From positions 864,001 to 928,000 of the forward strand of contig CM000207.1 in NCBI GenBank assembly GCA_000002445.1: 64,000 nt of DNA, written 5' to 3'. Position numbers and translations under genes: made by a program. Below, piece by piece: positions 28,805-49,100 of this stretch. Source of the stretch: Trypanosoma brucei. Its lineage: Eukaryota. The notes below the pieces were generated by a model. It was not told the origin of the DNA. It did no database searches and was given only the letters and a program-made list of their open reading frames with translations. Every line of letters starts with the position of its first letter. Within the stretch, counting starts at the first letter, position 1.

Positions 28805-30070
28805 ATGCGTATCCCGGAAGGCACTGCTAAGATTCTCGCTAAGGTTCCGCTTCCCGATGAGGTGGCCGTCGTGCACCGAAACGCGGCCGTCGTCGACATT
28901 GGTGCTTGCAAAACTCGCATTGGGTTCGCAGGGGATGATATACCACGTGTCAACGAGCCCACGTGCGTTTTGCGTGGGGGAGAGCAGGAGAGCACGTTGT
29001 ACCTGCGAAAGGCATACGACAAGCGGGCGATAGGTGACACCGTCCGCGTTATCGAAGACAAGGAGGTGAATTGGGATGCCATGGAACTGTTACTGCAGCA
29101 TTTGGATGACATACTACACCTAAGCAATAGCGAAGTCCCAACACCTTTGTTGCTAACGGAGAAGATGCTCGTTCCCCGCGCCCACCGTCAACGGTTGGCG
29201 GAGATGCTGTTTGAGAAACATAATCTGTGTTCCGTTTATTTTGCACCGAGTCCCGCCCTCGCGCTCTATGCCTCGGGTGTGTGCAGCGGCGTATCAGTGG
29301 AAATGGGATACGACGCCTGTCACGTGGTGCCTGTGTTTCAGGGTTGTCCCATGTTTCATGCCGTGCATGCATTGGAGTATGGGGGTAAACTGTGCACGCA
29401 GTACATGATGAACACGGGTCAGCCACTTCCGGATGTTGTGCATCCCCGCCACCGGGTGGATGTGTGGGAACATATAAAGGAGAAAAATTGTGAGACATGC
29501 CCCAGCAGTGCCGCCTTCCGCAGGGCGGTAGAGATGGAGGCAAACATGAATAGTAGTAATGAAGAAAACGAGGATTACTCCGGTAGAAACAAAAATGTGG
29601 TTCACCACAAGTTACCGGATGGCACGATCATTTCTCTGGGCTCGAGTCGGTTTGTCCCATCTGAGATGTTGTTTGATCCCTCGCTTGCACCAACCACCGA
29701 GCACGAAAGCAACCACAAGTGGGTAGAACATTTCGAATACTTACACACGTATGCTTTCCCTCAGGGTATTCATAGGCTTCTCGTCGATTCGGTGCGGAAA
29801 TGCGATACCGACCTTCAGGGGTTGCTGTACGGCGCGCTACACCTGTCAGGAGGTTGCTCACTTTTAAGTGGCCTCCCTGAGAGGTTGCGGGATGATGTCG
29901 CATCTATTACGGCTCAGGCTGTGCACGTAGAGGCGCAAACGGAGCGAAGGGACGCAGCGTTTGTCGGAGGTTCCATTTTAGCATCGCTTCCGACATTCCA
30001 AAATTTTTGGGTTACCCGTGCGGAATACAGCGAGTTTGGTGCCGGTGCGGTGCTGCGGCGAGGTTTGTGA
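28805..30070 (+). CDS. divergent actin-like protein (421 aa)
   Basis: …AAVVDIGACKTRIGFAGDDIPRV… (actin phosphate-1 loop), …LLYGALHLSGGCSLLSGLPERL… (phosphate-2), C-terminal …SEFGAGAVLRR. Much more divergent than Arp3 at 19018. Confidence 0.75.
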   Translation: MRIPEGTAKILAKVPLPDEVAVVHRNAAVVDIGACKTRIGFAGDDIPRVNEPTCVLRGGEQESTLYLRKAYDKRAIGDTVRVIEDKEVNWDAMELLLQHLDDILHLSNSEVPTPLLLTEKMLVPRAHRQRLAEMLFEKHNLCSVYFAPSPALALYASGVCSGVSVEMGYDACHVVPVFQGCPMFHAVHALEYGGKLCTQYMMNTGQPLPDVVHPRHRVDVWEHIKEKNCETCPSSAAFRRAVEMEANMNSSNEENEDYSGRNKNVVHHKLPDGTIISLGSSRFVPSEMLFDPSLAPTTEHESNHKWVEHFEYLHTYAFPQGIHRLLVDSVRKCDTDLQGLLYGALHLSGGCSLLSGLPERLRDDVASITAQAVHVEAQTERRDAAFVGGSILASLPTFQNFWVTRAEYSEFGAGAVLRRGL

Positions 30071-30497: not shown

Positions 30498-33494
30498 ATG
30501 GACTCACCTGAAGCATGCCGGGTGCAACGATTCCGGCGCACATCTTCCTCCCGGGACAGTTTTAACATTCCCACCTACGTACGTACTGTGCCCTCTGCCC
30601 TTGTAGAGGCTCTCACCGCCCCGCGGGAGAAGTTCGAGCGCTACCACAAATCCTCCCTTACTGATGGAAGTAAAGGACCCCGAGAAACGTCTCAGAAAGT
30701 CAACCAAGGCACACAGACAAACCCCATTGCGTCTGATTCGAAGGCCGCGCAGTTTAGTGGTTCGATTTCGGATTGTGAAGCAGTTGCCCCTTTAGGTAGC
30801 AAAGCGGTGACCGCACCCCCACGTGACGCCACGACGCCGGAGGGAGAGGAACTGCCAATGCGAACAACGGAGTCCAGTGCTAAACCTTCAACAAACATCA
30901 CTGAAGAGCGAAGTGAAGTAGAAGAGGCTAAAACTAATGACAACATCCCGAGATGTATTCCGTATGACCCAGAGGGCACGGTGCTCGCCATGCAGCGACT
31001 CCGGGATGTCAAACACCGTTGCCCTGCAAAAATTGCGAACTGCCTACAGAAGATCAACAAAGAAATCGCAGAGAAACTGACCAACGCAGGGGAAGCATTG
31101 TCTGCCTCTCCCTCCACGTCTTTATCATCGGTTACTGTCGCCGGACCTGACGGACGCCAACGAACTGGACCCCCCGCACCTCTCGCTGCGCTTCCTGAGC
31201 CGTGGGAGGATCGTTTGGATGCTCCCATCGCGGTGTCCAATACGTTAGGAAGAAAGCGCGGTCTCTTTGGTGACGTAGAGCGGAAGGAACTTCACCATCA
31301 CGTGATTTCTATCCTCAATCGCGTGGCCGGAGACGCGACTAAGTATCGTGAGGTGAAGAATGAATTGTTACGGCTGCCAATACCCGAGGCAAGCGATGAA
31401 ATGCTGAAGAACATTGTTAATGTCTTCTTCATGAAGGCTGTAAGAGAGCAGCATTTCGCGAACCTCTACGCCGACCTTGTAGTGGAGTTGTGCAAGGTAC
31501 CAGAGGGTCAACGGATTGTAGGCAACAAGTCGCAGAGCCTTGAATTTCGTATGCGACAGCAGCTCCTTTCTCGATGCCAGGAAGAGTTTCAGCGCTTAGA
31601 GGAGAAAAACATAGAGACTGCTAACCAAGGTGGAGAGGACCGCAATACACAGAGTGCGGATGAGAGCTTTAAGGAGCGTAGGGACCGTGCATGCGGTATT
31701 GTGGCGTTCGTTGGCCAGCTTTTCTTGCGTCACATTGTTACGGAGAAGGTAATCATGCAAATTTTAACCACAACAACTGCGGGACACTATGGAAGAGAAG
31801 GACTCGTTATGCCGCCCCCATACACACCATCGGAGGGACAGATGGATGAGTTAGTTAAACTTCTAGGTATTGTCGACTCGGCGTTCTTTGCCACGCCCCT
31901 TGGTTCTTCTATGCTAGTAGTGTTTACCGATATCATGGTGCATTGGTCGCAGCATCACCCTGTACTGCGTATTAGACTGCTCCTGCTTTCCGTTGTTGAA
32001 CGGCTCCAAAAAAAAATAGGCGAGCAAAACGCTGCGGCGCAACAGCAGCGCCAACAACAACAACAACAACCGCCGGGTCAGACACGCCAGTCTGCGTTTG
32101 AGGGCAAACGCCCACCAAATTCTGTTGGCGATTCGCAGCGACCTGTTAGTCCCTCCAGTGGAGGTAACTCCCCGCTTAGTGTTTCGGGTGTTCCGGCAGC
32201 GGTTTCAGTAGCTGGCGTGGAGGTCGCGGCAAGGCCAATCCAACCACCCCCTGCTGCCCGCAATAGTTTAATCCCCGCCCCGCGCAGTGCGGCGTCGCGC
32301 CAGAGTAGCATTGTGGTTACGACCCCGCTTACTTCTACCGTGAGTACCTCCTTCGCAGTTAAGCAAGTGGCTACAACGGAAACTGTGGCAACTTACATGC
32401 ATAACGTTACGCGGTGTGACTGCACCGTTGATATGGTCGTTGACGAAATCGCCAACGCATTTGAGAACGTCATAAGTGTTGTTGTTGTGTGGACGGAGCG
32501 CTGTCTGACGGTTGTGAAGACGGCAAAGCAACGAGTTCTGTTTGGCCCTTTTCTTTGTTCCGTAGAGCGGCAGTGCGGGGGAACGTTGAAAGAGAAACTC
32601 CGCCAGGTGGCCATGGATGCTTTTCGTAATGCTGTTCGGCAGAAGCTGTACGAGGATTTAGCAATCTTCAAGTATTGGACAGAGATGATCTGCAGTGATA
32701 CAGCGCGAGAGGTGCTGGACGAAACCCTACTAAATGAGGGTCTAGACTGTGTAATGTCATTTGATCGATCGGCCGTGAGGATATATTTGCGCGACGTAGC
32801 CATGCAATTGCAGCAGCGGTCATCTGGCCCACAGCGCGAACCAAGCCTCGAGAAGAATGATTTCATTCGATATCGTCCATTGCAGGTTATTCACGCAAAT
32901 ACCGCGGAGTCTGGAGTTGAGCCAATACTGGCCTTAATTGACTATCCTGATGTGCGAAAACAATCCATCGAGATTGACTTATATTGCACAATAGTGACTG
33001 ACAATCCACCCAAGAATGTCCTATTTGACTCCTTGGCGAGTTCTCCGTGTTTGGAGTCTCCATTAGCTGCTGCAGAGGTTTTCAGTGCCCTGTTGCATGC
33101 GTGGCTTAAGAGTGGCTTCGCGAATTCCATTCAAGATCATGTTGACATATGTTTACTTGCCGTCAACAACCGAGATCGGGCTACGCGTGAGATCCTTTTG
33201 CTGATGGAACTCTATTCTGTGCTGAAGAATGTTGTTCCACCTTCGACGAGGTCGATTGAAATGGGAGAGATTGCGTTGAAGGTGTTGAAAAAAGGACTTG
33301 TCACGGAGGAAACGAGGGTGCGCGCTTACAACTATTTGGAGCCACTAGAAAGAAATCCGCATCACTTTATTGGTATACCACCCGGTTCTATCGCACGTTC
33401 CGAATTTGAAAGCAGCAAGCCGGTTATCAGCACACTTAAGGAGAGGAAATCTCACTCAGGCAATGGTTCTTCGGGCGCTGTGAGGCGGGTTTAG
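30498..33494 (+). CDS. MIF4G-domain protein, eIF4G-like (998 aa)
   Basis: …ISILNRVAGDATKYREVKNELLRLPIPEASDEMLKNIVNVFFMKAVREQHFANLYADLVVELCKVPEG…ACGIVAFVGQLFLRHIVTEKVIMQIL… is a typical MIF4G HEAT-repeat core. The flanks are low-complexity, including a Q-run QQQRQQQQQQ. Confidence 0.75.
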   Translation: MDSPEACRVQRFRRTSSSRDSFNIPTYVRTVPSALVEALTAPREKFERYHKSSLTDGSKGPRETSQKVNQGTQTNPIASDSKAAQFSGSISDCEAVAPLGSKAVTAPPRDATTPEGEELPMRTTESSAKPSTNITEERSEVEEAKTNDNIPRCIPYDPEGTVLAMQRLRDVKHRCPAKIANCLQKINKEIAEKLTNAGEALSASPSTSLSSVTVAGPDGRQRTGPPAPLAALPEPWEDRLDAPIAVSNTLGRKRGLFGDVERKELHHHVISILNRVAGDATKYREVKNELLRLPIPEASDEMLKNIVNVFFMKAVREQHFANLYADLVVELCKVPEGQRIVGNKSQSLEFRMRQQLLSRCQEEFQRLEEKNIETANQGGEDRNTQSADESFKERRDRACGIVAFVGQLFLRHIVTEKVIMQILTTTTAGHYGREGLVMPPPYTPSEGQMDELVKLLGIVDSAFFATPLGSSMLVVFTDIMVHWSQHHPVLRIRLLLLSVVERLQKKIGEQNAAAQQQRQQQQQQPPGQTRQSAFEGKRPPNSVGDSQRPVSPSSGGNSPLSVSGVPAAVSVAGVEVAARPIQPPPAARNSLIPAPRSAASRQSSIVVTTPLTSTVSTSFAVKQVATTETVATYMHNVTRCDCTVDMVVDEIANAFENVISVVVVWTERCLTVVKTAKQRVLFGPFLCSVERQCGGTLKEKLRQVAMDAFRNAVRQKLYEDLAIFKYWTEMICSDTAREVLDETLLNEGLDCVMSFDRSAVRIYLRDVAMQLQQRSSGPQREPSLEKNDFIRYRPLQVIHANTAESGVEPILALIDYPDVRKQSIEIDLYCTIVTDNPPKNVLFDSLASSPCLESPLAAAEVFSALLHAWLKSGFANSIQDHVDICLLAVNNRDRATREILLLMELYSVLKNVVPPSTRSIEMGEIALKVLKKGLVTEETRVRAYNYLEPLERNPHHFIGIPPGSIARSEFESSKPVISTLKERKSHSGNGSSGAVRRV

Positions 33495-33890: not shown

Positions 33891-35163
33891 ACTTGTGTGT
33901 CTTTTCGTCGTTAGTTGCGTATCGGGGTGCATGTAGGGGAAGTGCAGATGTGGAGTGCCACTCTTTTTTGCCGCTCGCGATACGTGGCGTTAGACTGAAA
34001 GTGATATGTTTTGCGGCATCTCTGTGTACGCTTACTCATCTGCGCTTGAAACTGCATAATACCACGAGTGACGAAAAGAGAGAGAGACGGATAAAAGGAA
34101 TGAATGAATGAAAAAAAACACTGAAAATACCAATAGAAGAGGAGAGGTTGAAGAGATTTTGTCATGTTATCTTTGTTGCGTATTAGTGGCTGCTTATTTC
34201 CTTTGTGGTGGCAACAGGTTTCATTTTTTTCCTTTTTTTTTTTCATTTCATCACTTACCGTTTTTTATTTATTTTAATTTGTTAACGGTCTGTCGCTGCT
34301 GCGTGTTTTCGATAGCTATGAGTTGTTACTGATCCTCCTTCCACCTCCAGAAAAAGGAACAAAATAAGGTAAACAAAACGACCACCGGAGGGGAATTGGG
34401 AAGTAAAAGCAGAGAAAAGAGAAAATAAATCTAGGGGCTGATTGATGGAGTGTTCGAGAGGTTTCGTGGCGGAATAAATTAACGTGAACCAACAACTTCA
34501 TCGTGAAAAGCAAAGCAAAAGGGAGAAGGCAAAACAAAACAGAATGGGGAAAAGAAGGGCAAAACTTTTTTATTTGTATACATTTGCGCTTGTGTTTGTG
34601 TCTGTTTGAGGGTGCGTACAAGAGGAAAATGATATTAATAATATTTAAAATCTTAACGGAGGGGCCGACGTGACGGCAGAGTTCTCCCAGGGGACAAACG
34701 TAAGCTCACACACACGCACATCAAATACACATACACATACATATGCATGGCGGGGGAAGAAAGCAAAAACAACAGCAAATAAACACATAAATTAGAAGGA
34801 GAGATTTTATTCAAAGGAAAATATGATGGAAATGGACGCAGTCCTTCCACCGCAGGAGGAGGAACTTCAAGTCTTGTTTTTCTTTTTATTCTTTCTGTTC
34901 TGTTTGTCGGCCCCGTTTCCGCGTTATTTTTGTTTGTTATTTTTGCGTTTTTTTTTTGTGAACCAACAACGAAAGACTCTGAAATGTATTTTTGGAGCCA
35001 TTTTACCGTTGTCGCATTACGTGTGTGTTCTTTTTTTTTAAAAAAATGATTAGCTTACCCGAATGTCGACTTTCCTTTGCTTGTTCAGCCCTTTTGCCTT
35101 CCGTTTCCTTCAACAAAAAGAGAGGAAGAAAAGTTAAACTGTTTCTTGTTTACTGTGTTGACG

Positions 35164-35182
35164 TATATATATATATATATAT
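35164..35182. repeat. (TA)n microsatellite
   Basis: tatatatatatatatatat. Confidence 0.9.
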
Positions 35183-35576
35183 TTGCCCTCTTTTCGTTAG
35201 TCCCTTCTTTTTTTCCTTTTATTGTCTTTCTGTCTCTTTGCGCCCATTTTTTTTTTTTAATTCTGCTGCTGTTAGTTTCCCCCTTTCCTTTCCCTTAACT
35301 TTTCTTTTATCTTCATTCCTCACTCTCCGCTGTGTCTGTGGGATGTGTTGCGAATTGAGTAGATGGAGAGGGTGCGATCAAAATGTATGTGTCTGTGCGT
35401 ATATGGAGATGTTGTGGTAAACCGTAGTTTTGAGGTAACTGTTATCACAAGCGTTGTTAATTTTGCCGGGGCATTGTAACAATCACGATGAGTGATTTCC
35501 ATCGTTTGATTGGATGAATCTATATGTGCGTCATTACGAACCCTCCCCTTTTCGCTTCTTCTAAAATATCTGAAAA

Positions 35577-35596: not shown

Positions 35597-36152
35597 CATA
35601 AATGTTTATTCATACGCGAACGTGCGCGTCTTTGTTTGCTTTATCAGGGTCACGCCCTCGGTATCCTGTGCTATCTTTTTTTCTCATGTTGTGAACCAGA
35701 CGGTGAAGGTTAATTGCGTTTCTTTCCTCACTTTTTCCTATTGCATTTCAATGGGTCGCGTAGTAGTGTCAACCGGGCATTTACATATTTAAGTACACAT
35801 ATCTACGTAGGCCTGACTCTTTCTTTCTTTGGAGAGTTCGCGCTACTGCAAAGATACAGTTGCGGGACCGCTGCCGGTTTTAGCTGCTTTTACCGTCAAA
35901 GCTTGTCCTAATTGTCACAGCTTCCCTCGTAAGTGGATCGAGCTTTGTGTACGTGAACTTAAGATTCTTCGGAACATTCTCTCACAAAGTAGTTCACAGG
36001 TTAGGAGGGAAGAAAAGGGGTTTTGAATTGGCGCTGCAACGGCGTAGTGACTCGTAGCGCTGCACGACCACTTGTAGCTTGCAAGCTGCACTTTTACTTT
36101 TATTATTATTATTATTATTTAAATACGCTCCTTTTGCCGTCTAAGGTACTAA

Positions 36153-38177
36153 ATGAGTGGATCGTTGAACGTGGAGCAGGGGCCGCGTGAAGCGTCACCG
36201 GGATCGGCGACACTGTTGGATTCACCGGCGGCAACAGGAATGAGTACCCGCCACGCAGAGCAAGTGGTTCAGAGTATCAAAGTCTTGTATGAGCTTCATA
36301 AAAGCGGTGCCCTTTCACTCGAGGAATTCAACGCAGCAAAACAGCAAATCCTGTTTCCACCTCATTCGTTACTATCGGTGTCGGGACGGTCAAGTGAGGT
36401 AGGGCATGCAGAATACGTGAGAAGTAGGCACATCAAAAAAAGGGAAAACCGCGGTAGCAAACGCGGTTCAAGTCACTGGAGCAGCACGAGCAGCAGCAGT
36501 AGCAGTATCAGCACAGTTAGTAACTTTATGGTCGCACCCCGCCCGAGAGTGTGGTTGCCCCTCGTTGATGAAGGATCTGGCGATGGTGTAAATCATGACG
36601 CCGTAATGAAAGAGGAGTTAGATGAGGGATTCCTCTCTGGACCCGTGGATAAGGCGGGATACTACTCGCTTCGGTCAAGAACTCTATCCCAGGACCGGGG
36701 AAGACCCTGTGCGCCGCCGAGCAGCAACGGCCATGGGAGTAACCTGAAGCGTTATGGTACATTTAGGTCCCCATGGCCCGTCGTGATTGGTGACACCAGC
36801 ATCCCCAAAGAATCTGTTCGGGCACCGATGCTCCCCGTCAATCAAGTGTTTGTGGAATACTTCAACTGCCGCGGCGAGCGGGGTCAAACGTTTAGCAGCG
36901 TGGAACTCAAGGAACATCAGTTGCGTCCACCCCTCTTTCTTCATAAGCGGTTTGCTACAGGGCAGCGTGAGAGGGTACCGGAGGCGCTAAGTACTTTGGC
37001 CCATACGCAGGAACTGGTTCCGTCTGAGTCTGCAGTTTTGCATGAAGAATATCCAGCAGCAGAACCGCCGGATGCCCCTTCCGTATCGGGGAACTCCAGT
37101 TTAGAGTTGTGCCTTAACTGGTATTGGGTAGATATGGTGGGTCGTGACCCCTCGGAGGTAATGTACAAAAATGCTCTCCGTCATTTGACGAAGCAGTTTG
37201 ATATTGCAGAATCTTTTCTACTGGACCGCGAACACCCTCTGGTGTTACCGCAGATTTGCAGTTCCCCTGAGGATCCCTCGCAGTTCCTAATTTGCCTCCG
37301 TGTTGCCACAGCTAAAATTGCGCTCGATGATGACAGTGTAAAGGAACTTACGAACCGCTGGATTCTCGTAGTAGATCTGAAGCGAAAGGTTGTCATCACC
37401 ATCCACCGCATGGATAGTTCGTATATTGCCAACATGCGCTATCACTGGAAATCATTGATGGAGCGAAGTGACATATCATTCGAAGAGTTTCTTGTGAGGA
37501 TCATGCATGACGCGGTCTGTACATACACCAGCCATCTAATTGCCCACTCCGATATTCTCGAGAAATGCGAGGCAAAGCTCTTTGTTTCCAGTCGCAGGGG
37601 GACAAATAATGTTCCGGGTACCGAGTACAGCGCTAGCAAGCAGCATGCTGAAGGGAGGATCTTCTCACTTTTTGTCGATGGTTCCTCATCACCGTTTCTC
37701 TTGAAGTTGATGGATACAAAAAATAAAGAGCCGATGGATAAGGGGCTCATGAACATTTTCCTTTATCATTTACATCGTCGTGCGAGTGTTCACCACCGTG
37801 TACTTAATATGACGAGGGTAGTGCTTTCCGAGAGCTTCACAAAACTTGGACTTTGCAGCAAGGAATATGCGGATGAGATGTGTGTACACTGCATAGAGCT
37901 GATCGACCGCGCGCTAGAAATTTGCGATGATGCCAAAACTCTCCTCGACATGCATATTTCTTTGCAATCGTTTCGAACGAACGAACTAATGGCGCTTCTA
38001 ACGAAATTTTCGGCCTTCTTCACACCTAGTTCTTTCCTTGCCGCAGTGTATGGTATGAATTTTCCCCACATACCTGAGTTGCAATGGGCATGGGGCTATC
38101 CATGCTATTGGTTGGCATGTATTGTGGCTTGTGTCCTCATATATCTTTACATGTACCGACGAGGACTTCTGGAGTAG
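36153..38177 (+). CDS. CorA/Mrs2-family Mg2+ transporter-like protein (674 aa) with long N-terminal extension
   Basis: C-terminal …AVYGMNFPHIPELQWAWGYPCYWLACIVACVLIYLYMYRRGLLE carries the GMN signature and two terminal TM helices. N-terminal …VVQSIKVLYELHKSGALSLEEFNAAKQQIL is SHOCT-like. Confidence 0.85.
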   Translation: MSGSLNVEQGPREASPGSATLLDSPAATGMSTRHAEQVVQSIKVLYELHKSGALSLEEFNAAKQQILFPPHSLLSVSGRSSEVGHAEYVRSRHIKKRENRGSKRGSSHWSSTSSSSSSISTVSNFMVAPRPRVWLPLVDEGSGDGVNHDAVMKEELDEGFLSGPVDKAGYYSLRSRTLSQDRGRPCAPPSSNGHGSNLKRYGTFRSPWPVVIGDTSIPKESVRAPMLPVNQVFVEYFNCRGERGQTFSSVELKEHQLRPPLFLHKRFATGQRERVPEALSTLAHTQELVPSESAVLHEEYPAAEPPDAPSVSGNSSLELCLNWYWVDMVGRDPSEVMYKNALRHLTKQFDIAESFLLDREHPLVLPQICSSPEDPSQFLICLRVATAKIALDDDSVKELTNRWILVVDLKRKVVITIHRMDSSYIANMRYHWKSLMERSDISFEEFLVRIMHDAVCTYTSHLIAHSDILEKCEAKLFVSSRRGTNNVPGTEYSASKQHAEGRIFSLFVDGSSSPFLLKLMDTKNKEPMDKGLMNIFLYHLHRRASVHHRVLNMTRVVLSESFTKLGLCSKEYADEMCVHCIELIDRALEICDDAKTLLDMHISLQSFRTNELMALLTKFSAFFTPSSFLAAVYGMNFPHIPELQWAWGYPCYWLACIVACVLIYLYMYRRGLLE

Positions 38178-38523
38178 ATACCATGATTCTGTTGCCCGCG
38201 TCGACACCAAAAGAAAAGAAAAGAGAGAAAGAAAGAAAAAAAAAAGAAGATCCAACTTGAAGGAGGCGATACCTCATTTCTTCTTTCACTCTTTTACCGT
38301 TTATGATTTTTTTTTGTTACTTTTGGGAATCATGTAATTTCGCATTACGTGTTGTTGTTTTTTTTTTAAATAAAAAAAAAGGGGGGTTCGTTCCACAGTG
38401 TGTGTTTGTGTGTGGATGGGCAGGAACGAAGTTTTTTAATTAAAAAAAAAGCATATTTGTGTGCATCTGCGTGGCTGCTCGCATCTGTGCTTATGTTTGG
38501 TCGCAATACCGATAGCAGCACGA

Positions 38524-38525
<2 letters not shown>

Positions 38526-38557
<32 letters not shown>
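38526..38557. repeat. (AT)16 microsatellite
   Basis: atatatatatatatatatatatatatatatat. Confidence 0.95.
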
Positions 38558-38560
<3 letters not shown>

Positions 38561-39422
38561 GAGGGCTGATGAGGAAGTTTGACGCCAAGTCATATGTGTG
38601 AAGTCCGTTATACTTTGATTTGTTTCACATATTCCTCTCCCTTCAATCTCTTCGTAAGCGTTAATGCGCCTTCTTTGTTCATACTGCTGCTTACCACGTG
38701 GTCCCGAAATGTCACCGCTACCCTTATCACCATTCGAACTACCGTGTTCAGCAAAACTAAAACTAAGTGGTCGAATGAACATAACTTTCTTCTGTTGTCT
38801 TTTCTCCTTTACCTTCTCTGTGTCATATCAATAAATATATATATCTCCTGTTCTTGTTTTTATTAGTGACCGTCCCCCACTGCTAGTGTCAGTTGTATAC
38901 ATATATAATCATATATATATACATATACATATACTTAGGTTCGTTAGTTATATTTTACCTTAATTGCGGTTGTGGTTGTTCCAAACATTTTGTTTCTATT
39001 TGGAGGCAAAGAAAACACAAATACGCACACGAGCACCCAAATATATTACATAGAAGGGGAAAGACGTTGACAGCGAAGAAGAGAGGGAGTGTGTAAAATA
39101 TATAGTGGAGAGAGGGTGGTAACAAAAAAAATTGGTAAAGAAATTCGCGTCTGTTTCTTTTTTTTTTTGCAAGGGAGACCGTCGAAAGGAAGATAAGGAT
39201 TTTTTTTTGTGTGTGAGTGTGTTGTTGGTGTGCGTGAAGCTGAGGAAGGTAAAAAAAAAAAGTTCGTACCGTGTTACCGTAATTGCTTTACTTTTTTTTT
39301 TGTTTCTTTTCGCGATTTTTGTCAGTAAGTTTGTTGTTGCATATACGTATATACTTGTATAACGTAACCTCGCGCCTGTATATTACCTACAAGTGCACGT
39401 GCGTTGAACTTAACACAGTGCC

Positions 39423-42400
39423 ATGAATCAGAACAATTTATCTTGCGAGGACAGTGATGTTTCCACTAATCCTGGAAACGCCTCACCAGGTTCTGGGGAT
39501 GATAGCGGAACATCTTCTGAGGGACATCCGTCATGTGTGGATAATTCCGTGTCGCCGTCGGTATCTTCTCTGTTATCGCAAGCGGAAAAGAGCGCCACTG
39601 ATTCAGTTCATGCAGAGGAGGAGCACTTGGAAAAAGATACGGAGTTGAGACAAGGGATGAAACAGGGAGGGTTTGTAAAGAGCGCTGGACGCGGAAGCAA
39701 GGATCCGCTCGCGCTTGACCAAGCAGTGGCACCCGCGATACCGGTGCCATTTGTTGGTCTTATAAATGAGGGTTGTACATGTTACTTGAACTCTCTTCTT
39801 CAAATGTTGTTTCACTTATGCTACTTCCGAAACGCTGTTTATCTCACACCAACGGACGCTAATGATGAGAGTTGCTCGATACCTCGTGCGCTGCAATCAG
39901 TTTTCCATGAGATGGAGATACGCCGTACCCCAGTGCATACAAAAAAGTTGACAGCCGCCTTCGACTGGACTGAGAGCGAGCTTTACTCTCAGCATGACAT
40001 TCAAGAAATGGCCACGCTGCTTCGTGACAATCTTGAGGAGCGAATGAAGGGATCTGTAAGCGAGGGCGCGATCAACCGGATGTTTGAGGGCTATGGTGAG
40101 CAAGTTGTTGCAACACTCGACAAGAGCTTTTGTTCACGCAGCCGGGACACCTTTTACGATATCCACCTCCCCCTCGAGGGGCACACCAACCTCATGGATA
40201 GTTTACGCTCGCTCACAGCGAGGGACATGCTTGTTGGGGACAACAAGTATCGCGTTGAGGAACCTGGGAGGGAGCCACAATATAAGGACGCACAGAAAAG
40301 TTATGAATTCCGTCGCTTTCCACCTGTTATTTGGTTTCATTTAAAACGGTTCGAAATGGATCTCACATCACCTATACTGGAGACGAAGAAGGTGAACAGT
40401 TACTTGGAGTTTCCCGTGGAGTTGTCCCTCGAGGAATTGGAACACGAGACTCCCTCAAATTGGGGGGAATACGCTACCCAAGTATTTGCTGGGGATATGG
40501 GTGATGAAAAGAAAATGACGGGAGATGATGGGGGTGAGAAGAGGAAGAGGAGAAAAGGAGATAATGAAGTGGCAACGGCTATTGCACGGCCCTTCAGTAG
40601 GGATACACCAGCCGTATATGATCTGCAGGGAGTTATTGTGCACAAGGGTTCTGTCCGTAGCGGTCACTACTATTGCTACATAAGGGAATGGGATGCCACT
40701 GAGAAGAGGTTTACGCGTTGGTTGGAATTTGATGATGAGAGGGTAACAGTTGTCAGCCAGGAGGTTGCAGTGAATGACAACTTCGGCGTGCCTGTTCCAA
40801 CAGAGGGAAGGCCACTCTGGCACATGCCTACTAATAATGCTTATATGCTTTCATATGTAAGACGTGCCGATTGTCAGAGGATGTTTGAACGGCCGAAGAA
40901 TAACATTGTTCCTCAGTGTGTAAGGGATCAACTTCGGGAGGAAATCCAGGAGGAGAAACGACGTGAGGAGGAGGCAAACATGCGTCGCAGAAAATTGGTG
41001 CTATACGTCCTCACGGATGAAATAATCAGTGAGCATGTCAAGCGAGTACAACGTGAGACCTTTCCATCAGATCCTCGGATTTGGGAGGAAGTTTGTTTCC
41101 GTGTCGAAGTAGAAAAAACTACTCCGCTTCAAATGGTGTATGTTTCTGTCGCTGAGTGCGTACCGAACGTTAAAAAGAGGTTCAGGTTTGACGATTTCCG
41201 ACTCTGGCTCTCTCCGTGGACAAGCCACATCCACGTTGCGGTGCCGTTGCAACTGACCGAATCAACTAAGAATTGCTCACTCACTGAATACCTCAACTAT
41301 AGGAACGATGACAAATCACCACTGATGCACTTCCTTGTGTACCTACAACGACGGACAACACTTCCGCAGCTTTATGTACCGAATACCGCTTCATTGTTTG
41401 TTAATCAACGGCTTGGGGCTGAGGCGGTGGCTGCGTGCAACGGATGCACCATTATCCTCCCCAAACCAACTCCCATCAGCAGTATTACGTTCTACACAAT
41501 TTACTTTTCTGATTATGCGGCGCCATGCAACGTGCATATTTGCCTGTACGCTGCTGATGATCAAAAAACTCCTTGTGAAAGCAAAACATGTACACTCAGC
41601 CGGGACCTATGCATGTTTGACGTGAACTCCACGGGGCAAAAAATCGCATTAATCCGGTGCGCTGTGAGAGGTTCGCTAGCGTGGGTCTATTTATTAGCAA
41701 ACGAAAGACCCTCAATGTCGTCGTTACGGGTGACATATGGGTGTGAAGGGGAGGGGATCGAAGAAACTAACATTTCGTCTCTCCCCCGTATTGACAGGTG
41801 TGCTGTTTTGGTCTTTCTCAAATATTTCAACCCCGTCACCCGCCACGTTGCCTACGCAGGATCGGCGATGATTCCACTGCACGCAACAGTTGCCGATTGT
41901 GGGCGAGTGTTGCTACGTCTTTTGGGTGAGGACCCTGACTTAGTTGATACTCTTCTAATATATGAGGAAAGCCAGTGCCAAAATGTACTACTCGATAATG
42001 AGAAGACTCTCCAGAACTCTGGTATCATAGTTGGTAGTGTACTGATTGCGCAACAACGCAATTCGCGTGTGCACTCATATACTGATGTAAACGACTATCT
42101 GCTTAGTTTGCCAAACTTTATCCATGTGAAGGCCACCCATTCCGTCTTTGAGGAGCGCTACATGTTTTCGGAAGAAGACTCGGGTTATGAGGCTGATAAT
42201 GTTGAAGGAAGTGATGATTGCGTTGTACCAGCAAGGCCAGCCGTCGTGGAGGCGTCAATTCCCATGTCCGATGCGGACAGTGAGGTTCGCGGACAGACGA
42301 CGTTCTACCCACCAAGGAACTTTCACGTCATCAAAGCATATATGCTTACATTAGATAGCCAGTTGAAGTACGATGAGGTCTGTGAAGCAATTGGTACTGC

Positions 42401-43451
42401 AAGCGGACATGACCCAGCTTTCATTCGGTTGTACAAAGGTACTTGCGGTGGCAATCCCAACTGTGGGGAGATATTAACGCCAGAGGTGGACCCTGCACCC
42501 AGCGATATGGTCCTTTCAGGGTTATTGTGGGGTAACCGTGTGGATGTCATCTTTTTTGAGGTACTGCGCGAGCCACGACGCGTGGTGGAGTGTCGCCCGC
42601 GCCTCGTAGTGACGGTACGGGGTCGGAAGAATGAGGCAATATACAAGGAGAAGCTTGTGGTTCCACAGGGTACCACAGTTGGTGATGTGGTAGAACAGGC
42701 AGTTCGGCGATGTGCGATAACTGTTGAGCGCACATTTTGTTCTGACGGGGGAGCAGGGGTCGCCTTGGATGCTGGCGGTAGTGTCAACAGATGCAGCAGA
42801 AGCAGAAGCAATAACAGTGAGGTGATAAGTTCACAGGTTATCACTCCTTTTGTCATTTCCCCTCACTACCTTGCACTTGTCGTCGACCCCCGCGAGCGTC
42901 TAATCAACTGCATCATCGAAGTGCCCGTTATGGAAGACGGCACATGTGACTGTAATTGTTTTATCGATGACTTGGTTTCACAAGCGGTGGCTGCATACGG
43001 AACCGCCGGTCTCTGTGCCCCAGTGGAGCCACTAACAATTTTTGTTGTGCCTGCTCCGCCGCTGCAGAAGGATCAGTTCCGGATTGCTTGCTGTCATGGT
43101 GAAGTATTTGCTGACCGGGATGACAGTCTCCCACTAATGTTTGGGCAGCCTTTTGTTGTTACGGCAGATTACCACGCAACTGTAGAGACACTGCGGGATA
43201 TCCTCCTTGAGTACACGGGTGTTCCCGCTAATGAAGTTGTGCCTTTACAACGTGGTGTTGTTGTCATAGCCACAAGGCGAAGCGTTTTCCTTCCTTGGAG
43301 CGAATGTTTCTTTGAATTTGTGAGGCGGGAAGAGAGAAAAAGGGGTCCATTCACTCCGTCACTGCTGCTAAACCACCGTCGGCCGAGAGAAAAACCGGGA
43401 TCGCGGTACGTGGCGCAGGCTGCTCCGGCGTTACGTATTTCAAGAAGGTGA
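39423..43451 (+). CDS. ubiquitin carboxyl-terminal hydrolase, USP family (1342 aa)
   Basis: Cys box …FVGLINEGCTCYLNSLLQMLFHL…, His box …YDLQGVIVHKGSVRSGHYYCYIREWD…, and a long (about 800 aa) C-terminal extension as in USP7-class enzymes. No obvious N-terminal MATH domain. Confidence 0.9.
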   Translation: MNQNNLSCEDSDVSTNPGNASPGSGDDSGTSSEGHPSCVDNSVSPSVSSLLSQAEKSATDSVHAEEEHLEKDTELRQGMKQGGFVKSAGRGSKDPLALDQAVAPAIPVPFVGLINEGCTCYLNSLLQMLFHLCYFRNAVYLTPTDANDESCSIPRALQSVFHEMEIRRTPVHTKKLTAAFDWTESELYSQHDIQEMATLLRDNLEERMKGSVSEGAINRMFEGYGEQVVATLDKSFCSRSRDTFYDIHLPLEGHTNLMDSLRSLTARDMLVGDNKYRVEEPGREPQYKDAQKSYEFRRFPPVIWFHLKRFEMDLTSPILETKKVNSYLEFPVELSLEELEHETPSNWGEYATQVFAGDMGDEKKMTGDDGGEKRKRRKGDNEVATAIARPFSRDTPAVYDLQGVIVHKGSVRSGHYYCYIREWDATEKRFTRWLEFDDERVTVVSQEVAVNDNFGVPVPTEGRPLWHMPTNNAYMLSYVRRADCQRMFERPKNNIVPQCVRDQLREEIQEEKRREEEANMRRRKLVLYVLTDEIISEHVKRVQRETFPSDPRIWEEVCFRVEVEKTTPLQMVYVSVAECVPNVKKRFRFDDFRLWLSPWTSHIHVAVPLQLTESTKNCSLTEYLNYRNDDKSPLMHFLVYLQRRTTLPQLYVPNTASLFVNQRLGAEAVAACNGCTIILPKPTPISSITFYTIYFSDYAAPCNVHICLYAADDQKTPCESKTCTLSRDLCMFDVNSTGQKIALIRCAVRGSLAWVYLLANERPSMSSLRVTYGCEGEGIEETNISSLPRIDRCAVLVFLKYFNPVTRHVAYAGSAMIPLHATVADCGRVLLRLLGEDPDLVDTLLIYEESQCQNVLLDNEKTLQNSGIIVGSVLIAQQRNSRVHSYTDVNDYLLSLPNFIHVKATHSVFEERYMFSEEDSGYEADNVEGSDDCVVPARPAVVEASIPMSDADSEVRGQTTFYPPRNFHVIKAYMLTLDSQLKYDEVCEAIGTASGHDPAFIRLYKGTCGGNPNCGEILTPEVDPAPSDMVLSGLLWGNRVDVIFFEVLREPRRVVECRPRLVVTVRGRKNEAIYKEKLVVPQGTTVGDVVEQAVRRCAITVERTFCSDGGAGVALDAGGSVNRCSRSRSNNSEVISSQVITPFVISPHYLALVVDPRERLINCIIEVPVMEDGTCDCNCFIDDLVSQAVAAYGTAGLCAPVEPLTIFVVPAPPLQKDQFRIACCHGEVFADRDDSLPLMFGQPFVVTADYHATVETLRDILLEYTGVPANEVVPLQRGVVVIATRRSVFLPWSECFFEFVRREERKRGPFTPSLLLNHRRPREKPGSRYVAQAAPALRISRR

Positions 43452-46106: not shown

Positions 46107-49100
46107 ATGGCGGAGGCACACAAGTATAAGAAGCTCACACCTATTGAGCATGTACTCACACGACCAGAGATGTACATTGGTAGTCTCGACACAACGGCAA
46201 CCCCCATGTTTATATACGATGAACAGAAGGGTCACATGGTGTGGGAGACGGTGAAACTGAATCACGGTTTGCTGAAAATCGTGGATGAAATTCTGCTAAA
46301 TGCATCTGATAACATCTCCAACAGAAGTGCGCGCATGACGTATATCCGCGTGACCATCACGGACACGGGTGAGATTACTATAGAGAACGACGGCGCTGGG
46401 ATCCCCATCGTACGCAGTCGAGAGCATAAATTATATATACCAGAGATGGTATTCGGTCACCTACTTACCAGCTCTAATTATGATGACGATAACCAAAATG
46501 CAGTTGCTGGTCGCCACGGTTACGGTGCAAAGCTAACCAACATTCTTTCCCTGAGCTTTTCCGTCTGCTGCCGCACAAATGGGAGGGAGTTTCACATGAG
46601 TTGGCAGGATCACATGAGGAAGGCAACGGCTCCACGCGTTTCAAACGTCGGCACAAAAGAGAAAAATGTCACGCGTGTGAAGTTTCTCCCCGACTACGAG
46701 CGATTTGGCATGAAGGAGAAGAAAATTTCAAACGACATGAAGCGTGTGCTCTACAAGCGCATTATGGACCTTTCCGCAATGTTTCCGAATATTCAAATAA
46801 CCCTGAACGGCTCATCCTTTGGCTTCAAGTCCTTTAAGGACTATGCGACTCTGTACAGTGCCATGACCCCAAAGGGAGAGAAACCACCGCCACCATACGT
46901 ATACGAGAGTAAAAGCGGTTGCGTTGCCTTCATTCCTTCAGTAGTCCCCGGGGTGCGGCGGATGTTTGGTGTGGTCAACGGTGTGGTAACGTATAATGGC
47001 GGTACGCATTGCAATGCTGCGCAGGATATATTGACCGGCTGCCTCGATGGCGTGGAACGGGAATTAAAGAAGGAGAACAAAGTGATGGACACTAATCGAG
47101 TGCTTCGTCACTTCACTATTCTAGTTTTCCTCGTGCAGGTGCAGCCAAAGTTTGATTCTCAGAACAAAGCTCGACTTGTTTCTACCCCCACGATGCCCCG
47201 TGTTCCTCGGCAAGATGTGATGAAATATCTTCTGCGCATGCCTTTTCTCGAGGCTCATGTGAGTACTATTACGGGACAGTTAGCGCAGGAACTAAATAAG
47301 GAGATCGGCACCGGACGCCGTATGAGTAGCAAAACCCTCCTGACCTCCATAACGAAACTGGTAGATGCAACTTCTACACGCCGTGACCCAAAACATACCC
47401 GCACGTTAATTGTTACTGAAGGTGACTCCGCAAAGGCTCTCGCGCAGAACTCTTTATCGAGTGACCAAAAGCGATATACAGGCGTATTTCCGCTTCGGGG
47501 TAAGCTGCTAAACGTGCGTAACAAGAATCTTAAGCGACTGAGGAACTGCAAGGAGTTGCAGGAACTGTTTTGTGCCCTGGGACTTGAGCTAGATAAAGAT
47601 TACACCGACGCCGATGAACTACGATACCAACGCATACTTATCATGACAGATCAGGACGCAGATGGCTCACACATTAAGGGTTTGGTTATCAACGCGTTCG
47701 AGTCTTTGTGGCCCTCGTTGCTGGTACGAAATCCTGGGTTCATCTCTATATTCTCCACACCCATCGTAAAGGCACGACTGCGCGACAAGTCGGTGGTATC
47801 CTTCTTCAGCATGAAGGAGTTTCACAAGTGGCAGCGCTCAAATGCAAATACACCATACACATGTAAGTACTATAAGGGTCTCGGTACTTCTACCACTGCT
47901 GAGGGAAAAGAGTACTTCAAGGATATGGAGAAACACACAATGCGCTTACTCGTGGACCGCTCCGATCATAAGCTTCTTGACAATGTTTTCGACTCACAGG
48001 AGGTAGAATGGCGAAAGGACTGGATGACCAAGGCGAATGCTTTTACCGGCGAGGTGGATATTGATCGTAGCAAGAAAATGCTAACGGTCACAGATTTTGT
48101 GCATAAGGAGATGGTTCATTTCGCCCTTGTTGGTAATGCCCGTGCGCTTGCGCACTCTGTAGACGGGCTTAAGCCTTCTCAGCGAAAGATTATTTGGGCT
48201 CTTATGCGGCGGTCCGGTAATGAGGCGGCGAAGGTGGCACAACTATCAGGTTACATATCAGAAGCTTCCGCTTTTCATCATGGTGAGACTTCATTGCAGG
48301 AGACGATGATTAAGATGGCGCAGAGCTTCACTGGTGGTAACAACGTCAACCTTCTCGTCCCTGAGGGTCAGTTCGGTTCTCGTCAGCAACTCGGTAATGA
48401 TCATGCGGCACCCCGTTACATTTTCACAAAGCTTTCAAAAGTAGCCCGCTTGCTTTTCCCTAGTGAGGATGACCCATTGCTAGACTACATTGTGGAAGAG
48501 GGTCAGCAGGTGGAGCCGAACCATTACGTTCCAATCCTACCGCTGCTCCTCTGCAACGGAAGTGTGGGCATCGGTTTCGGTTTTGCGTCGAATATTCCAC
48601 CATTCCACCCGTTGGACGTATCTGCAGCGGTACGAGCGATGATTAGCGGCGAAGCTGCCAAGTCGGTTGTCCGTCGACTTGTGCCGTGGGCTGTAGGCTT
48701 TCAGGGTGAGATACGTCGTGGCCCCGAAGGAGAGTTTATTGCTGTGGGAACGTATACTTACTGTAAGGGTGGTCGTGTGCATGTTACGGAGCTTCCTTGG
48801 ACGTGTAGCGTTGAAGCATTCCGTGAGCACATTTCTTACCTCGCCACAAAGGATATTGTTAACCGCATTGCCGACTATTCCGGCGCCAATCACGTTGACA
48901 TTGATGTGGAAGTTGCTCAGGGTGCGGTGAACACATATGCTGAGTGCGAGTCGGAACTTGGCCTCACGCAACGTATTCACATCAACGGTACAGTCTTTTC
49001 ACCGAATGGAACTCTTTCACCTCTGGAAAGTGACCTCACACCCGTCCTCCAGTGGCACTACGACCGCAGACTTGATTTATATAAAAAGAGGCGACAACGT

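What the first reader, a model, noticed from the sequence alone, without database searches (positions are those of the whole stretch)
36153..38177. CorA/Mrs2-type Mg2+ channel with an N-terminal SHOCT-like motif
The C-terminus has the definitive YGMNF signature and two TM helices. Residues about 35-65 (VVQSIKVLYELHKSGALSLEEFNAAKQQIL) fit the short bacterial SHOCT oligomerisation-motif pattern (L..L..L…G.Ls.eEF…K..iL). SHOCT is rarely noted in eukaryotic proteins. Its fusion to a CorA channel, whose gating is controlled by the N-terminal cytosolic domain, would be a novel regulatory arrangement.
Basis: inference. Interest (0 to 1): 0.5.

Follow-up and report, generated by a model that had tools for sequence, protein, structure and literature searches.

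The report
Known SHOCT–CorA magnesium channel of trypanosomes
This Trypanosoma brucei gene encodes a bacterial-type CorA magnesium channel (the counterpart of Leishmania MGT1) that really does carry a small SHOCT two-helix module at its N-terminus, but this fusion was already reported in the 2013 paper that defined SHOCT, so the finding is correct and not new.

Summary
The ORF at 36153-38177 (+) encodes 674 aa with YGMNF (residues 633-637), two C-terminal TM helices and a CorA Pfam hit (E=4e-26). Residues 42-67 match Pfam SHOCT (E=2e-5). That is 24.5 bits in the full protein, just under the 27-bit cutoff, and 30.3 bits as an isolated fragment. None of 10 shuffled or reversed controls hit.

The motif has no indels in 21 orthologs across Kinetoplastea, from Trypanosoma and Leishmania to Cryptobia and Papus, and 19 of 21 hit SHOCT individually. 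AlphaFold models it as helix-turn-helix, the most confident part of an otherwise poor model, tethered by a ~160-residue low-confidence Ser/Arg-rich linker.

- The fusion is not novel. Eberhardt et al. 2013 state that nine trypanosome proteins combine an N-terminal SHOCT with CorA.
- The channel resembles prokaryotic CorA, not Mrs2.
- "Oligomerisation motif" is unproven, and the only experiment was negative.

One addition: the nearest non-SHOCT relatives carry a divergent SAM domain at the same N-terminal position. That favours a tethered protein-interaction role for SHOCT, which is inferred and not shown. Verdict: already known, low interest.

The parts
36153..38177 (+). Complete coding sequence, 674 aa plus stop. 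T. brucei CorA-like cation transporter, counterpart of Leishmania MGT1.
   Evidence: ORF. It differs at 2 residues (S206P, D307G) from the T. b. gambiense DAL972 'cation transporter, putative'. The Leptomonas ortholog is named MGT1, and L. mexicana MGT1 (LmxM.15.1310) carries the same product name.
36246..36353 (+). SHOCT two-helix hairpin, residues 32-67: helix 32-50, turn 51-55 containing G52, helix 56-67. The Pfam match covers residues 42-67 (nt 36276-36353).
   Evidence: PF09851 at E=2.2e-5, 24.5-30.3 bits. AlphaFold2 helices with pLDDT about 76-84, the best part of the model. E58 is invariant and G52, L54, F59, A62, K63 and L67 are at least 90% conserved in 21 sequences with no indels. 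19 of 21 hit SHOCT.
36153..36245 (+). Variable, unconserved N-terminal leader, residues 1-31. A second Met at residue 30 lies just upstream of the hairpin.
   Evidence: Length and sequence are not conserved in A1. pLDDT is about 31-33. Met positions.
36354..36836 (+). Low-confidence, probably disordered linker, residues 68-228. It is Ser/Arg/Gly/Pro-rich with net charge +7 and contains an Arg-rich patch, a poly-Ser run (nt 36480-36512) and the conserved short motifs FMVAPRxxVW (nt 36525-36554) and RYGTF (nt 36750-36764).
   Evidence: pLDDT 25-39. Composition. Conserved islands in alignment A1. Coordinates.
36837..37988 (+). CorA cytosolic domain and stalk helices, residues 229-612, interrupted by a variable insertion at about residues 263-318.
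   Evidence: Conserved blocks VxVEYFNCRG and NWYWVDMVGRD onward. Predicted strands and long helices at modest confidence. Pfam and TIGR00383 alignments cover the C-terminal part. Full-length PF01544 coverage is seen in close relatives.
37989..38054 (+). TM1, the pore-lining helix, about residues 613-634, ending in the GMN signature.
   Evidence: Aligns residue for residue with TM1 of T. maritima CorA. AlphaFold helices 578-623 and 626-634.
38049..38063 (+). YGMNF selectivity signature, residues 633-637, followed by a prokaryote-like loop, PHIPELQWAWGY.
   Evidence: Read directly from the sequence. Invariant in 9 orthologs. Aligned to YGMNFEYMPELRWKWGY of TmCorA.
38094..38159 (+). TM2, about residues 648-669.
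   Evidence: Kyte-Doolittle 19-residue windows above 1.5 start at residues 645-655. AlphaFold helix 648-669.

Best explanation
The gene encodes the T. brucei member of a Kinetoplastea-wide family of prokaryote-type CorA (MIT family) divalent-cation channels. The Leishmania member of this family is MGT1.

The C-terminal two thirds form a CorA channel: a cytosolic domain, stalk helices, TM1 ending in YGMNF, and TM2. By analogy with solved CorA structures it should assemble as a pentamer whose cytosolic domain senses Mg2+. That step is inferred from the family and was not tested here.

At the N-terminus a genuine SHOCT two-helix hairpin (residues 32-67) hangs on a linker of about 160 residues that is Ser/Arg-rich and probably disordered. 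The fusion is ancient, predating the split of Prokinetoplastina, Parabodonida and Trypanosomatida, and it has been known since 2013.

The most likely role of the hairpin is a tethered protein-protein interaction module. It would sit on the same (cytosolic) side as the regulatory domain, with five copies per channel, and would bind either itself at high local concentration or a partner protein. That could cluster, localise or modulate the channel. It is unlikely to be part of the gating machinery itself.

Confidence in the identity (a real, conserved and previously described SHOCT-CorA fusion) is about 0.9. Confidence in the interaction-module mechanism is about 0.35-0.4, and that part is inference.
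For: Identity:
- CorA PF01544 at 92 bits, and SHOCT PF09851 at E=2e-5.
- Shuffle control: 0 of 10 hits.
- 7 of 9 full-length orthologs and 19 of 21 motif fragments hit SHOCT.
- The defining Gly and Glu are conserved and there are no indels.
- Helix-turn-helix at pLDDT 76-84, flanked by low-confidence segments.
- Prokaryote-type CorA by best solved-structure matches.

Age:
- The motif is present in Cryptobia borreli and Papus ankaliazontas.
- The SHOCT-bearing CorAs form one clade with 88/100 bootstrap support.

Prior knowledge:
- Eberhardt 2013 reported the fusion.
- Leishmania MGT1 is reported as ER-localised and Mg2+-transporting.
- MGT1 null mutants are viable.

Mechanism:
- Related CorAs outside the SHOCT clade carry, at the same N-terminal position and also followed by a linker of roughly 130-215 aa, a divergent SAM domain, a well-established protein-interaction and oligomerisation fold. 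The SAM profile scores E=7.6e-5 against the ARAP3 SAM domain, and 33 of 34 PDB hits are SAM proteins. 17 of 21 fragments hit SAM_2 and 12 of 21 hit SAM_1.
- The two modules are unrelated in sequence (hhalign probability 0.4%), which suggests functional equivalence and not common descent.
- The hairpin is only weakly amphipathic and has net charge -1, which argues against lipid binding.
Against: - No experiment addresses the kinetoplastid SHOCT.
- The one published test of a bacterial SHOCT found no self-association by size-exclusion chromatography.
- The T. brucei protein scores 24.5 bits in full-length context, below Pfam's 27-bit cutoff, and its precomputed annotation lists only PF01544.
- The SAM analogy is circumstantial. 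Papus has both a SHOCT-CorA and a SAM-CorA, so the two architectures are paralogous and may have different roles.
- The tree is a neighbour-joining tree with moderate support for deeper nodes (48/100).
- The full-length AlphaFold model is poor (mean pLDDT 47), so nothing can be said about contacts between the hairpin and the channel.
Confidence: 0.75

Rival explanations
1. Membrane-anchor model. The SHOCT hairpin lies on the cytosolic leaflet of the membrane, as Ravi, Aravind and colleagues (2024) predicted for SHOCT-like domains. It would pin the flexible N-terminus, and perhaps the cytosolic funnel, to the bilayer or confine the channel to a membrane sub-domain.
For: A published prediction holds that SHOCT-like domains anchor disparate domains to the inner leaflet. 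SHOCT frequently co-occurs with membrane proteins such as band-7, ion channels and Tic20. Helix 1 is moderately amphipathic (muH 0.43; about 5% of shuffles reach it).
Against: Helix 2 is no more amphipathic than shuffles (muH 0.21). Mean hydrophobicity is near zero. The net charge is -1 with no basic face. The protein is already an integral membrane protein, so it needs no anchor. The equivalent position in related CorAs holds a SAM domain, which is a protein-binding fold and not a lipid-binding one.
Confidence: 0.2
2. Intramolecular gating regulator. The hairpin would dock back onto the CorA cytosolic domain of its own or a neighbouring subunit and shift the open/closed equilibrium, possibly under control of phosphorylation in the Ser/Arg-rich linker.
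For: CorA gating is controlled by its cytosolic domain (established for T. maritima CorA; structures listed). The hairpin and that domain are on the same side of the membrane. The linker is rich in Ser and Arg and contains conserved short motifs.
Against: No docking is seen in the model, though the model is too poor to exclude it. Linker length varies enormously, from about 160 aa here to about 800 aa in P0023-P0025, which is unusual for a precise intramolecular latch. SHOCT occurs with at least 63 unrelated architectures, which argues for a generic function and not a CorA-specific one.
Confidence: 0.15
3. Not a true SHOCT. The match would be convergence of a generic short helix-Gly-helix hairpin on the SHOCT profile, with the kinetoplastid module arising independently, for example as a remnant of another domain.
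For: The domain is only 28 profile positions long. The full-length score is below Pfam's cutoff. Two of 21 instances do not hit at E<=0.01. No solved structure exists to confirm a shared fold.
Against: E=2e-5 against all of Pfam, with SHOCT the only family recurrently hit. 0 of 10 shuffled controls hit. The exact spacing and the two hallmark residues (Gly, Glu) of the family definition are conserved. Pfam's own curators placed the trypanosome proteins in the family. The remnant-of-SAM alternative was tested and rejected (hhalign probability 0.4%).
Confidence: 0.07

Closest known systems
Trypanosomatid SHOCT+CorA proteins described in Eberhardt, Bartholdson, Punta & Bateman 2013 (PLoS One 8:e57848; Pfam PF09851 with PF01544)
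   Same: The architecture and lineage are the same: SHOCT at the N-terminus and CorA at the C-terminus, in trypanosomes. The T. congolense, T. theileri and L. braziliensis orthologs carry both Pfam calls.
   Different: The T. brucei copy scores just under Pfam's gathering threshold in full-length context (24.5 against 27 bits), so its precomputed annotation lists only CorA. This work extends the fusion to Parabodonida and Prokinetoplastina.
Leishmania major/mexicana MGT1 (LmxM.15.1310), a CorA-like Mg2+ transporter (Zhu et al. 2009, Int J Parasitol 39:713)
   Same: It belongs to the same orthogroup. The Leishmania and Leptomonas members align end to end, SHOCT included, and the Leptomonas protein is named MGT1. 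MGT1 is reported as ER-localised and Mg2+-transporting, and the null mutant is viable.
   Different: The T. brucei protein is shorter (674 against about 824-836 aa) because its leader and linker are shorter. None of the accessible literature on MGT1 mentions the SHOCT module, and the primary paper could not be read.
Thermotoga maritima CorA (PDB 2IUB, 2BBJ, 4I0U, 3JCF)
   Same: This is the best solved-structure match (E=1.4e-17). It shares the stalk end, TM1, YGMNF, the MPEL-type loop and TM2, with a near-identical YGMNF..PEL.W.WGYP segment.
   Different: The bacterial protein is 351 aa and has no N-terminal extension. The trypanosome protein adds about 230 N-terminal residues (leader, SHOCT, linker) and an insertion of about 55 residues in the cytosolic domain. 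It fails the TIGR00383 equivalog cutoff (91.5 against 200.75 bits).
Mrs2 / Alr1 eukaryotic CorA subfamilies (including Leishmania MGT2, which is Alr1-like)
   Same: Same superfamily, with a GMN motif and two TM helices.
   Different: No Mrs2 or Alr1 chain reaches E<=0.01 in the PDB sequence search, whereas prokaryotic CorAs do. In Leishmania it is MGT2 (LmxM.25.1090) that carries the Alr1-like InterPro signature, not MGT1.
SAM-CorA proteins found here, from uncharacterised, mostly environmental eukaryotes (P0037-P0042, P0044-P0048, P0111 and others)
   Same: These are close non-SHOCT relatives of the CorA domain and share the layout: small helical N-terminal module, long linker, CorA.
   Different: The module is a divergent SAM domain of about 65 aa, unrelated to SHOCT. 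No Pfam SAM annotation is precomputed for them, and no literature was found.

Membership tests
CorA / MIT family (Pfam PF01544; TC 1.A.35) | Profile HMM score above the curated cutoff | tested here: met
   PF01544 scores 92.4 bits against a cutoff of 27, E=4.3e-26. All 9 orthologs hit.
CorA / MIT family (Pfam PF01544; TC 1.A.35) | GMN (YGMNF) signature at the end of TM1 | tested here: met
   YGMNF at residues 633-637, invariant in orthologs, aligned to YGMNF of TmCorA.
CorA / MIT family (Pfam PF01544; TC 1.A.35) | Two C-terminal transmembrane helices | tested here: met
   TM2 by hydropathy, windows starting at residues 645-655. TM1 by alignment to TmCorA. Both are helical in the model.
CorA / MIT family (Pfam PF01544; TC 1.A.35) | Alpha/beta cytosolic domain preceding the stalk helix | tested here: inconclusive
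   Pfam aligns only profile positions 153-292 in this protein. The model shows strands and helices at residues 236-476, but at pLDDT 40-65. Close relatives align over profile positions 4-291.
CorA / MIT family (Pfam PF01544; TC 1.A.35) | Homopentamer that conducts Mg2+ | not testable with these tools
   Only second-hand evidence: Leishmania MGT1 is reported to transport Mg2+.
Bacterial CorA equivalog (NCBIfam TIGR00383) | Score above the equivalog cutoff | tested here: not met
   91.5 bits against a cutoff of 200.75. It is related to bacterial CorA but is not an equivalog.
Mrs2 / Alr1-type eukaryotic subfamilies | Closer sequence similarity to Mrs2/Alr1 than to prokaryotic CorA | tested here: not met
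   All 9 PDB sequence matches at E<=0.01 are T. maritima or M. jannaschii CorA. The Alr1-like InterPro signature belongs to MGT2, not MGT1.
SHOCT (Pfam PF09851) | Profile HMM score at or above the gathering cutoff (27 bits) | tested here: inconclusive
   24.5 bits in the full protein, 27.5 bits on the N-terminal 107 aa and 30.3 bits on the 40-aa fragment. Three orthologs pass in precomputed Pfam. 19 of 21 fragments score E<=0.01.
SHOCT (Pfam PF09851) | About 30 residues forming two alpha helices joined by a short turn | tested here: met
   AlphaFold2 helices 32-50 and 56-67 at pLDDT 76-84. Family definition.
SHOCT (Pfam PF09851) | Strongly conserved Gly and Glu plus about five conserved hydrophobic positions | tested here: met
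   E58 is invariant. G52 is at least 90% conserved. L54, F59 and L67 are at least 90% conserved, along with other hydrophobic columns.
SHOCT (Pfam PF09851) | No insertions or deletions within helices or turn | tested here: met
   The 21 sequences align over 41 columns with no gaps.
SHOCT (Pfam PF09851) | Predominantly C-terminal location | tested here: not met
   Here it is N-terminal, at residues 32-67 of 674. The founding paper lists N-terminal exceptions, including these CorA proteins and Tic20 fusions, so this is typical and not a defining feature.

The most novel reading that the evidence does not exclude
SHOCT and SAM may be interchangeable N-terminal modules, each tethered by a long flexible linker, on one eukaryotic (kinetoplastid-centred) radiation of prokaryote-type CorA channels. 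That would imply that SHOCT, whose function has been unknown since 2013, works like SAM as a protein-protein scaffolding or clustering module. It would also make the non-essential MGT1 of Leishmania and T. brucei the first genetically tractable system in which SHOCT function can be tested.
Probability: 0.3. Interest if true: 0.45.

Novelty: already known. Interest (0 to 1): 0.2.

Why it matters
The practical value is modest. The finding confirms that T. brucei's MGT1-type Mg2+ channel carries the SHOCT module that its automatic annotation misses by about 2.5 bits. SHOCT remains a widespread domain of unknown function that is absent from the classic bacterial models. A conserved copy on a non-essential channel in genetically tractable parasites is therefore a reasonable place to test what it does. 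The parallel SAM-CorA architecture found here offers a concrete hypothesis, a tethered interaction module, and a natural swap experiment.

Tried and rejected
1. The word-indexed database search with the 41-column SHOCT profile found only 3 candidates and no hits, because the query is too short for that tool.

2. The PDB sequence search with the SHOCT-region profile gave nothing below E=0.5, so there is no solved SHOCT structure to compare with.

3. 'SHOCT is a degenerate remnant of the SAM domain's last two helices' was rejected: hhalign probability 0.4% with 3 aligned columns.

4. For the strong amphipathic membrane helix idea, the hydrophobic moment is modest for helix 1 and indistinguishable from shuffles for helix 2, with no basic face. 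The idea is kept only as a lower-ranked rival.

5. Full-length AlphaFold2 from 9 sequences gave mean pLDDT 47 and pTM 0.35. It was used only for local secondary structure and confidence. No fold search was run because the global model is unreliable.

6. The primary MGT1 paper (Zhu et al. 2009, PMID 19136005) is not held. Its content is cited second-hand.

7. The first tree attempt timed out and was redone with 50 taxa.

8. Taxon names for most SAM-CorA proteins could not be recovered, because they are unnamed metagenome or Logan assemblies.
Full report
**1. The observation**

The protein ends with a CorA-type C-terminus. YGMNF lies at residues 633-637 (nt 38049-38063). It is preceded by a helix that aligns residue for residue with TM1 of Thermotoga maritima CorA, and followed by a hydrophobic TM2 at about residues 648-669. 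Pfam CorA (PF01544) scores 92.4 bits, E=4.3e-26.

The quoted motif VVQSIKVLYELHKSGALSLEEFNAAKQQIL is at residues 38-67 (nt 36264-36353).

**2. Is the motif a SHOCT domain, and is it more than chance?**

Pfam's SHOCT model (PF09851, 28 positions) matches residues 42-67 over profile positions 3-28 at E=2.2e-5. The score is 24.5 bits in the context of the full protein, just below the 27-bit gathering cutoff. It rises to 27.5 bits on the N-terminal 107 residues and 30.3 bits on a 40-residue fragment.

- Control: nine shuffles and the reversed sequence of that fragment gave no SHOCT hit even at E<=10.
- Nine kinetoplastid orthologs were found: T. congolense, T. melophagium, T. theileri, T. vivax, an unnamed Logan assembly, Leptomonas, L. 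braziliensis and Phytomonas. All carry the motif in register, with L48, L54, E58, F59 and L67 invariant. Seven of the nine hit SHOCT as full-length proteins, and three already carry a precomputed PF09851 call.
- An exhaustive HMMER search of 1.84 billion representative proteins with the ortholog profile, followed by a motif HMM scan of the 166 proteins in hand, found the motif in 21 proteins. These are every full-length member of the top orthogroup. None of the roughly 300-aa prokaryote-type CorAs has it.
- The 21 instances align without a single gap. E58 is invariant, and G52, L54, F59, A62, K63 and L67 are at least 90% conserved. Of the 21, 19 hit PF09851 individually at E<=0.01, best 1.8e-8, and no other family recurs.

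These are exactly the features by which the family was defined: about 30 residues, two helices, a conserved Gly and Glu, conserved hydrophobic positions and no indels.

AlphaFold2 on the 9-sequence alignment gave a poor global model (mean pLDDT 47). It predicts helix 32-50, a turn, and helix 56-67 with pLDDT 76-84, the most confident part of the chain. These are flanked by low-confidence segments at residues 1-31 and 71-237.

**3. What the gene is**

The protein differs at two residues (S206P, D307G, both in non-conserved regions) from 'cation transporter, putative' of T. brucei gambiense DAL972. So the window is T. brucei.

All 20 ORFs of at least 250 aa in the window are on the + strand, as expected of a trypanosomatid polycistronic unit. 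Neighbours include a TBC RabGAP, an actin-family protein, a MIF4G protein, a USP7-like ubiquitin hydrolase and a type II topoisomerase.

The Leptomonas ortholog is named MGT1. The TransLeish transporter table lists L. mexicana MGT1 (LmxM.15.1310) under the same product name, with only PF01544 noted, and records viable null mutants. MGT2 (LmxM.25.1090) is Alr1-like and refractory to deletion. Leishmania MGT1 and MGT2 are reported to localise to the ER, and MGT1 to transport Mg2+.

By sequence, the channel part resembles prokaryotic CorA and not Mrs2 or Alr1. The only PDB matches at E<=0.01 are T. maritima (1.4e-17) and M. jannaschii (3e-10) CorA, including the YGMNF..PEL.W.WGYP loop. It is not a bacterial equivalog, scoring 91.5 bits on TIGR00383 against a cutoff of 200.75.

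**4. Anatomy**

- Variable leader: residues 1-31.
- SHOCT hairpin: residues 32-67.
- Linker: residues 68-228. It is low-confidence and probably disordered, Ser/Arg/Gly/Pro-rich, with net charge +7. It has an Arg-rich patch, a poly-Ser run and two conserved islands, FMVAPRxxVW and RYGTF.
- CorA cytosolic domain and stalk: residues 229-612, with a variable insertion at about 263-318.
- TM1, then YGMNF, then TM2.

**5. Is it new?**

No. The paper that defined SHOCT (Eberhardt et al. [quoted passage not shown] It also lists trypanosomes among the 19 eukaryotic species with SHOCT.

The same paper hypothesised oligomerisation. [quoted passage not shown]

A later comparative-genomics study predicts that SHOCT-like domains anchor proteins to the inner membrane leaflet. 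No structural or functional study of SHOCT was found in the library, and no solved structure matches the motif profile.

**6. What this analysis adds**

First, the fusion is older than trypanosomatids. P0028 is from Cryptobia (Trypanoplasma) borreli and P0030 from Papus ankaliazontas, a prokinetoplastid. SHOCT-bearing CorAs form one clade with 88/100 bootstrap support in a neighbour-joining tree of the C-terminal 340 residues.

Second, many of the other long CorA relatives recovered by the search lack SHOCT but share a different N-terminal module of about 65 residues. Its profile hits SAM domains almost exclusively in the PDB: ARAP3 at E=7.6e-5, then Caskin, ANKS1B, tankyrase and Ste11, with 33 of 34 listed hits. 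It is found in 23 of the longer hits. Of 21 fragments tested, 17 match Pfam SAM_2 and 12 match SAM_1, best 1.9e-6.

In these proteins the SAM domain is also separated from the CorA domain by a linker of roughly 130-215 residues. One SAM-CorA (P0111) is from Papus, which also has a SHOCT-CorA, so the two architectures coexist as paralogs.

A 23-kb environmental contig encoding a SAM-CorA has all called genes on one strand as uninterrupted ORFs, with eukaryotic neighbours (Serinc, PDS5). That layout is kinetoplastid-like.

The two modules are unrelated in sequence (hhalign probability 0.4%). No precomputed SAM annotation and no literature on SAM-CorA was found.

**7. Mechanism**

Shown:
- A conserved two-helix SHOCT module sits at the end of a long, low-confidence tether on a CorA-type channel.

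Inferred from the family:
- The channel is a pentamer with both termini cytosolic.
- The cytosolic domain senses Mg2+.

Inferred here:
- The hairpin is most likely a tethered protein-protein interaction module, binding itself or a partner. The equivalent position in related channels is occupied by SAM, a classic interaction and oligomerisation fold.
- The hairpin lacks the strong amphipathicity and basic face expected of a lipid-binding helix: muH is 0.43 for helix 1 and 0.21 for helix 2, and the net charge is -1.
- The highly variable linker length, about 160 to about 800 residues, is hard to reconcile with a precise intramolecular latch.

I put this mechanism at about 0.35-0.4. The rivals are membrane anchoring (0.2), an intramolecular gating latch (0.15), and a convergent hairpin that is not a true SHOCT (0.07).

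**8. Verdict**

Its interpretation is partly supported. The SHOCT identity and conservation hold. The claim of novelty is wrong because the fusion was published in 2013. The 'Mrs2-type' label is not supported. 'Oligomerisation motif' is an untested idea with one negative experiment behind it.

Novelty: already known. Interest: low (0.2). There is a modestly interesting side observation, the SAM-CorA relatives, that would make SHOCT function testable.

Noticed in passing
Related proteins P0037-P0042, P0044-P0048, P0050, P0054, P0055, P0066, P0068, P0070, P0078, P0088, P0094, P0111, P0131, P0141; locus L001:7764-9512 (+): A large group of eukaryote-like CorA channels close to the kinetoplastid clade carries a divergent SAM domain at the N-terminus in place of SHOCT. 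The profile scores E=7.6e-5 against the ARAP3 SAM domain, and 17 of 21 fragments hit Pfam SAM_2. Precomputed Pfam does not annotate it, and no literature was found. Papus ankaliazontas has both the SAM and the SHOCT versions.
   Followed up: partly
Related proteins P0023, P0024, P0025 (1229-1384 aa; Logan assemblies, taxon unknown): These are giant members of the SHOCT-CorA clade, with the SHOCT hairpin at about residues 137-191 and roughly 800 residues between it and the CorA domain. The content of this long insert was not examined. Pfam found nothing in it besides CorA, plus a weak SHOCT hit in P0025.
   Followed up: no
window 36480-36512, 36525-36554, 36750-36764 (+): Within the otherwise low-confidence linker there is a poly-Ser run preceded by an Arg-rich patch, and two short islands conserved across trypanosomatids: FMVAPRxxVW and RYGTF. 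They could be short linear motifs, for example phosphorylation sites, Arg-based ER retention signals or partner-binding sites. Their function is unknown.
   Followed up: no
Related protein P0026 (556 aa, Logan): This protein falls inside the SHOCT-CorA clade in the tree but lacks the hairpin. Its N-terminus starts in the linker region, with a GGNKYGTF motif present. It may be a truncated gene call or a secondary loss.
   Followed up: no
window 1-64000; ORFs at 22099-24324, 28805-30070, 30498-33494, 39423-43451, 46107-49772: All 20 ORFs of at least 250 aa are on the + strand, consistent with one polycistronic unit. Neighbours of the channel gene include a TBC RabGAP, an actin-family protein, a MIF4G-domain protein, a USP7-like ubiquitin hydrolase and a 1221-aa type II topoisomerase. 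Three long ORFs (27124-28017, 50808-54848, 55317-56552) have no Pfam hit.
   Followed up: partly
window ~34992-35420 and ~38366-38782 (intergenic flanks of the gene): Both flanks are low in GC (0.39-0.41 against about 0.49 in coding regions). Both contain TA-type simple repeats, visible as IYIYIY runs in spurious ORF translations, and pyrimidine tracts (for example 35674-35685 and 35817-35830). This is typical of trypanosomatid intergenic regions, where mRNA trans-splicing and polyadenylation signals lie.
   Followed up: no
window 36768-36770 and 37071-37073 (codons 206 and 307): The window's protein differs from the T. b. gambiense DAL972 representative at only two residues (S206 against P, D307 against G). 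Both lie in non-conserved linker or insertion segments, so the window is a different T. brucei strain or subspecies.
   Followed up: yes
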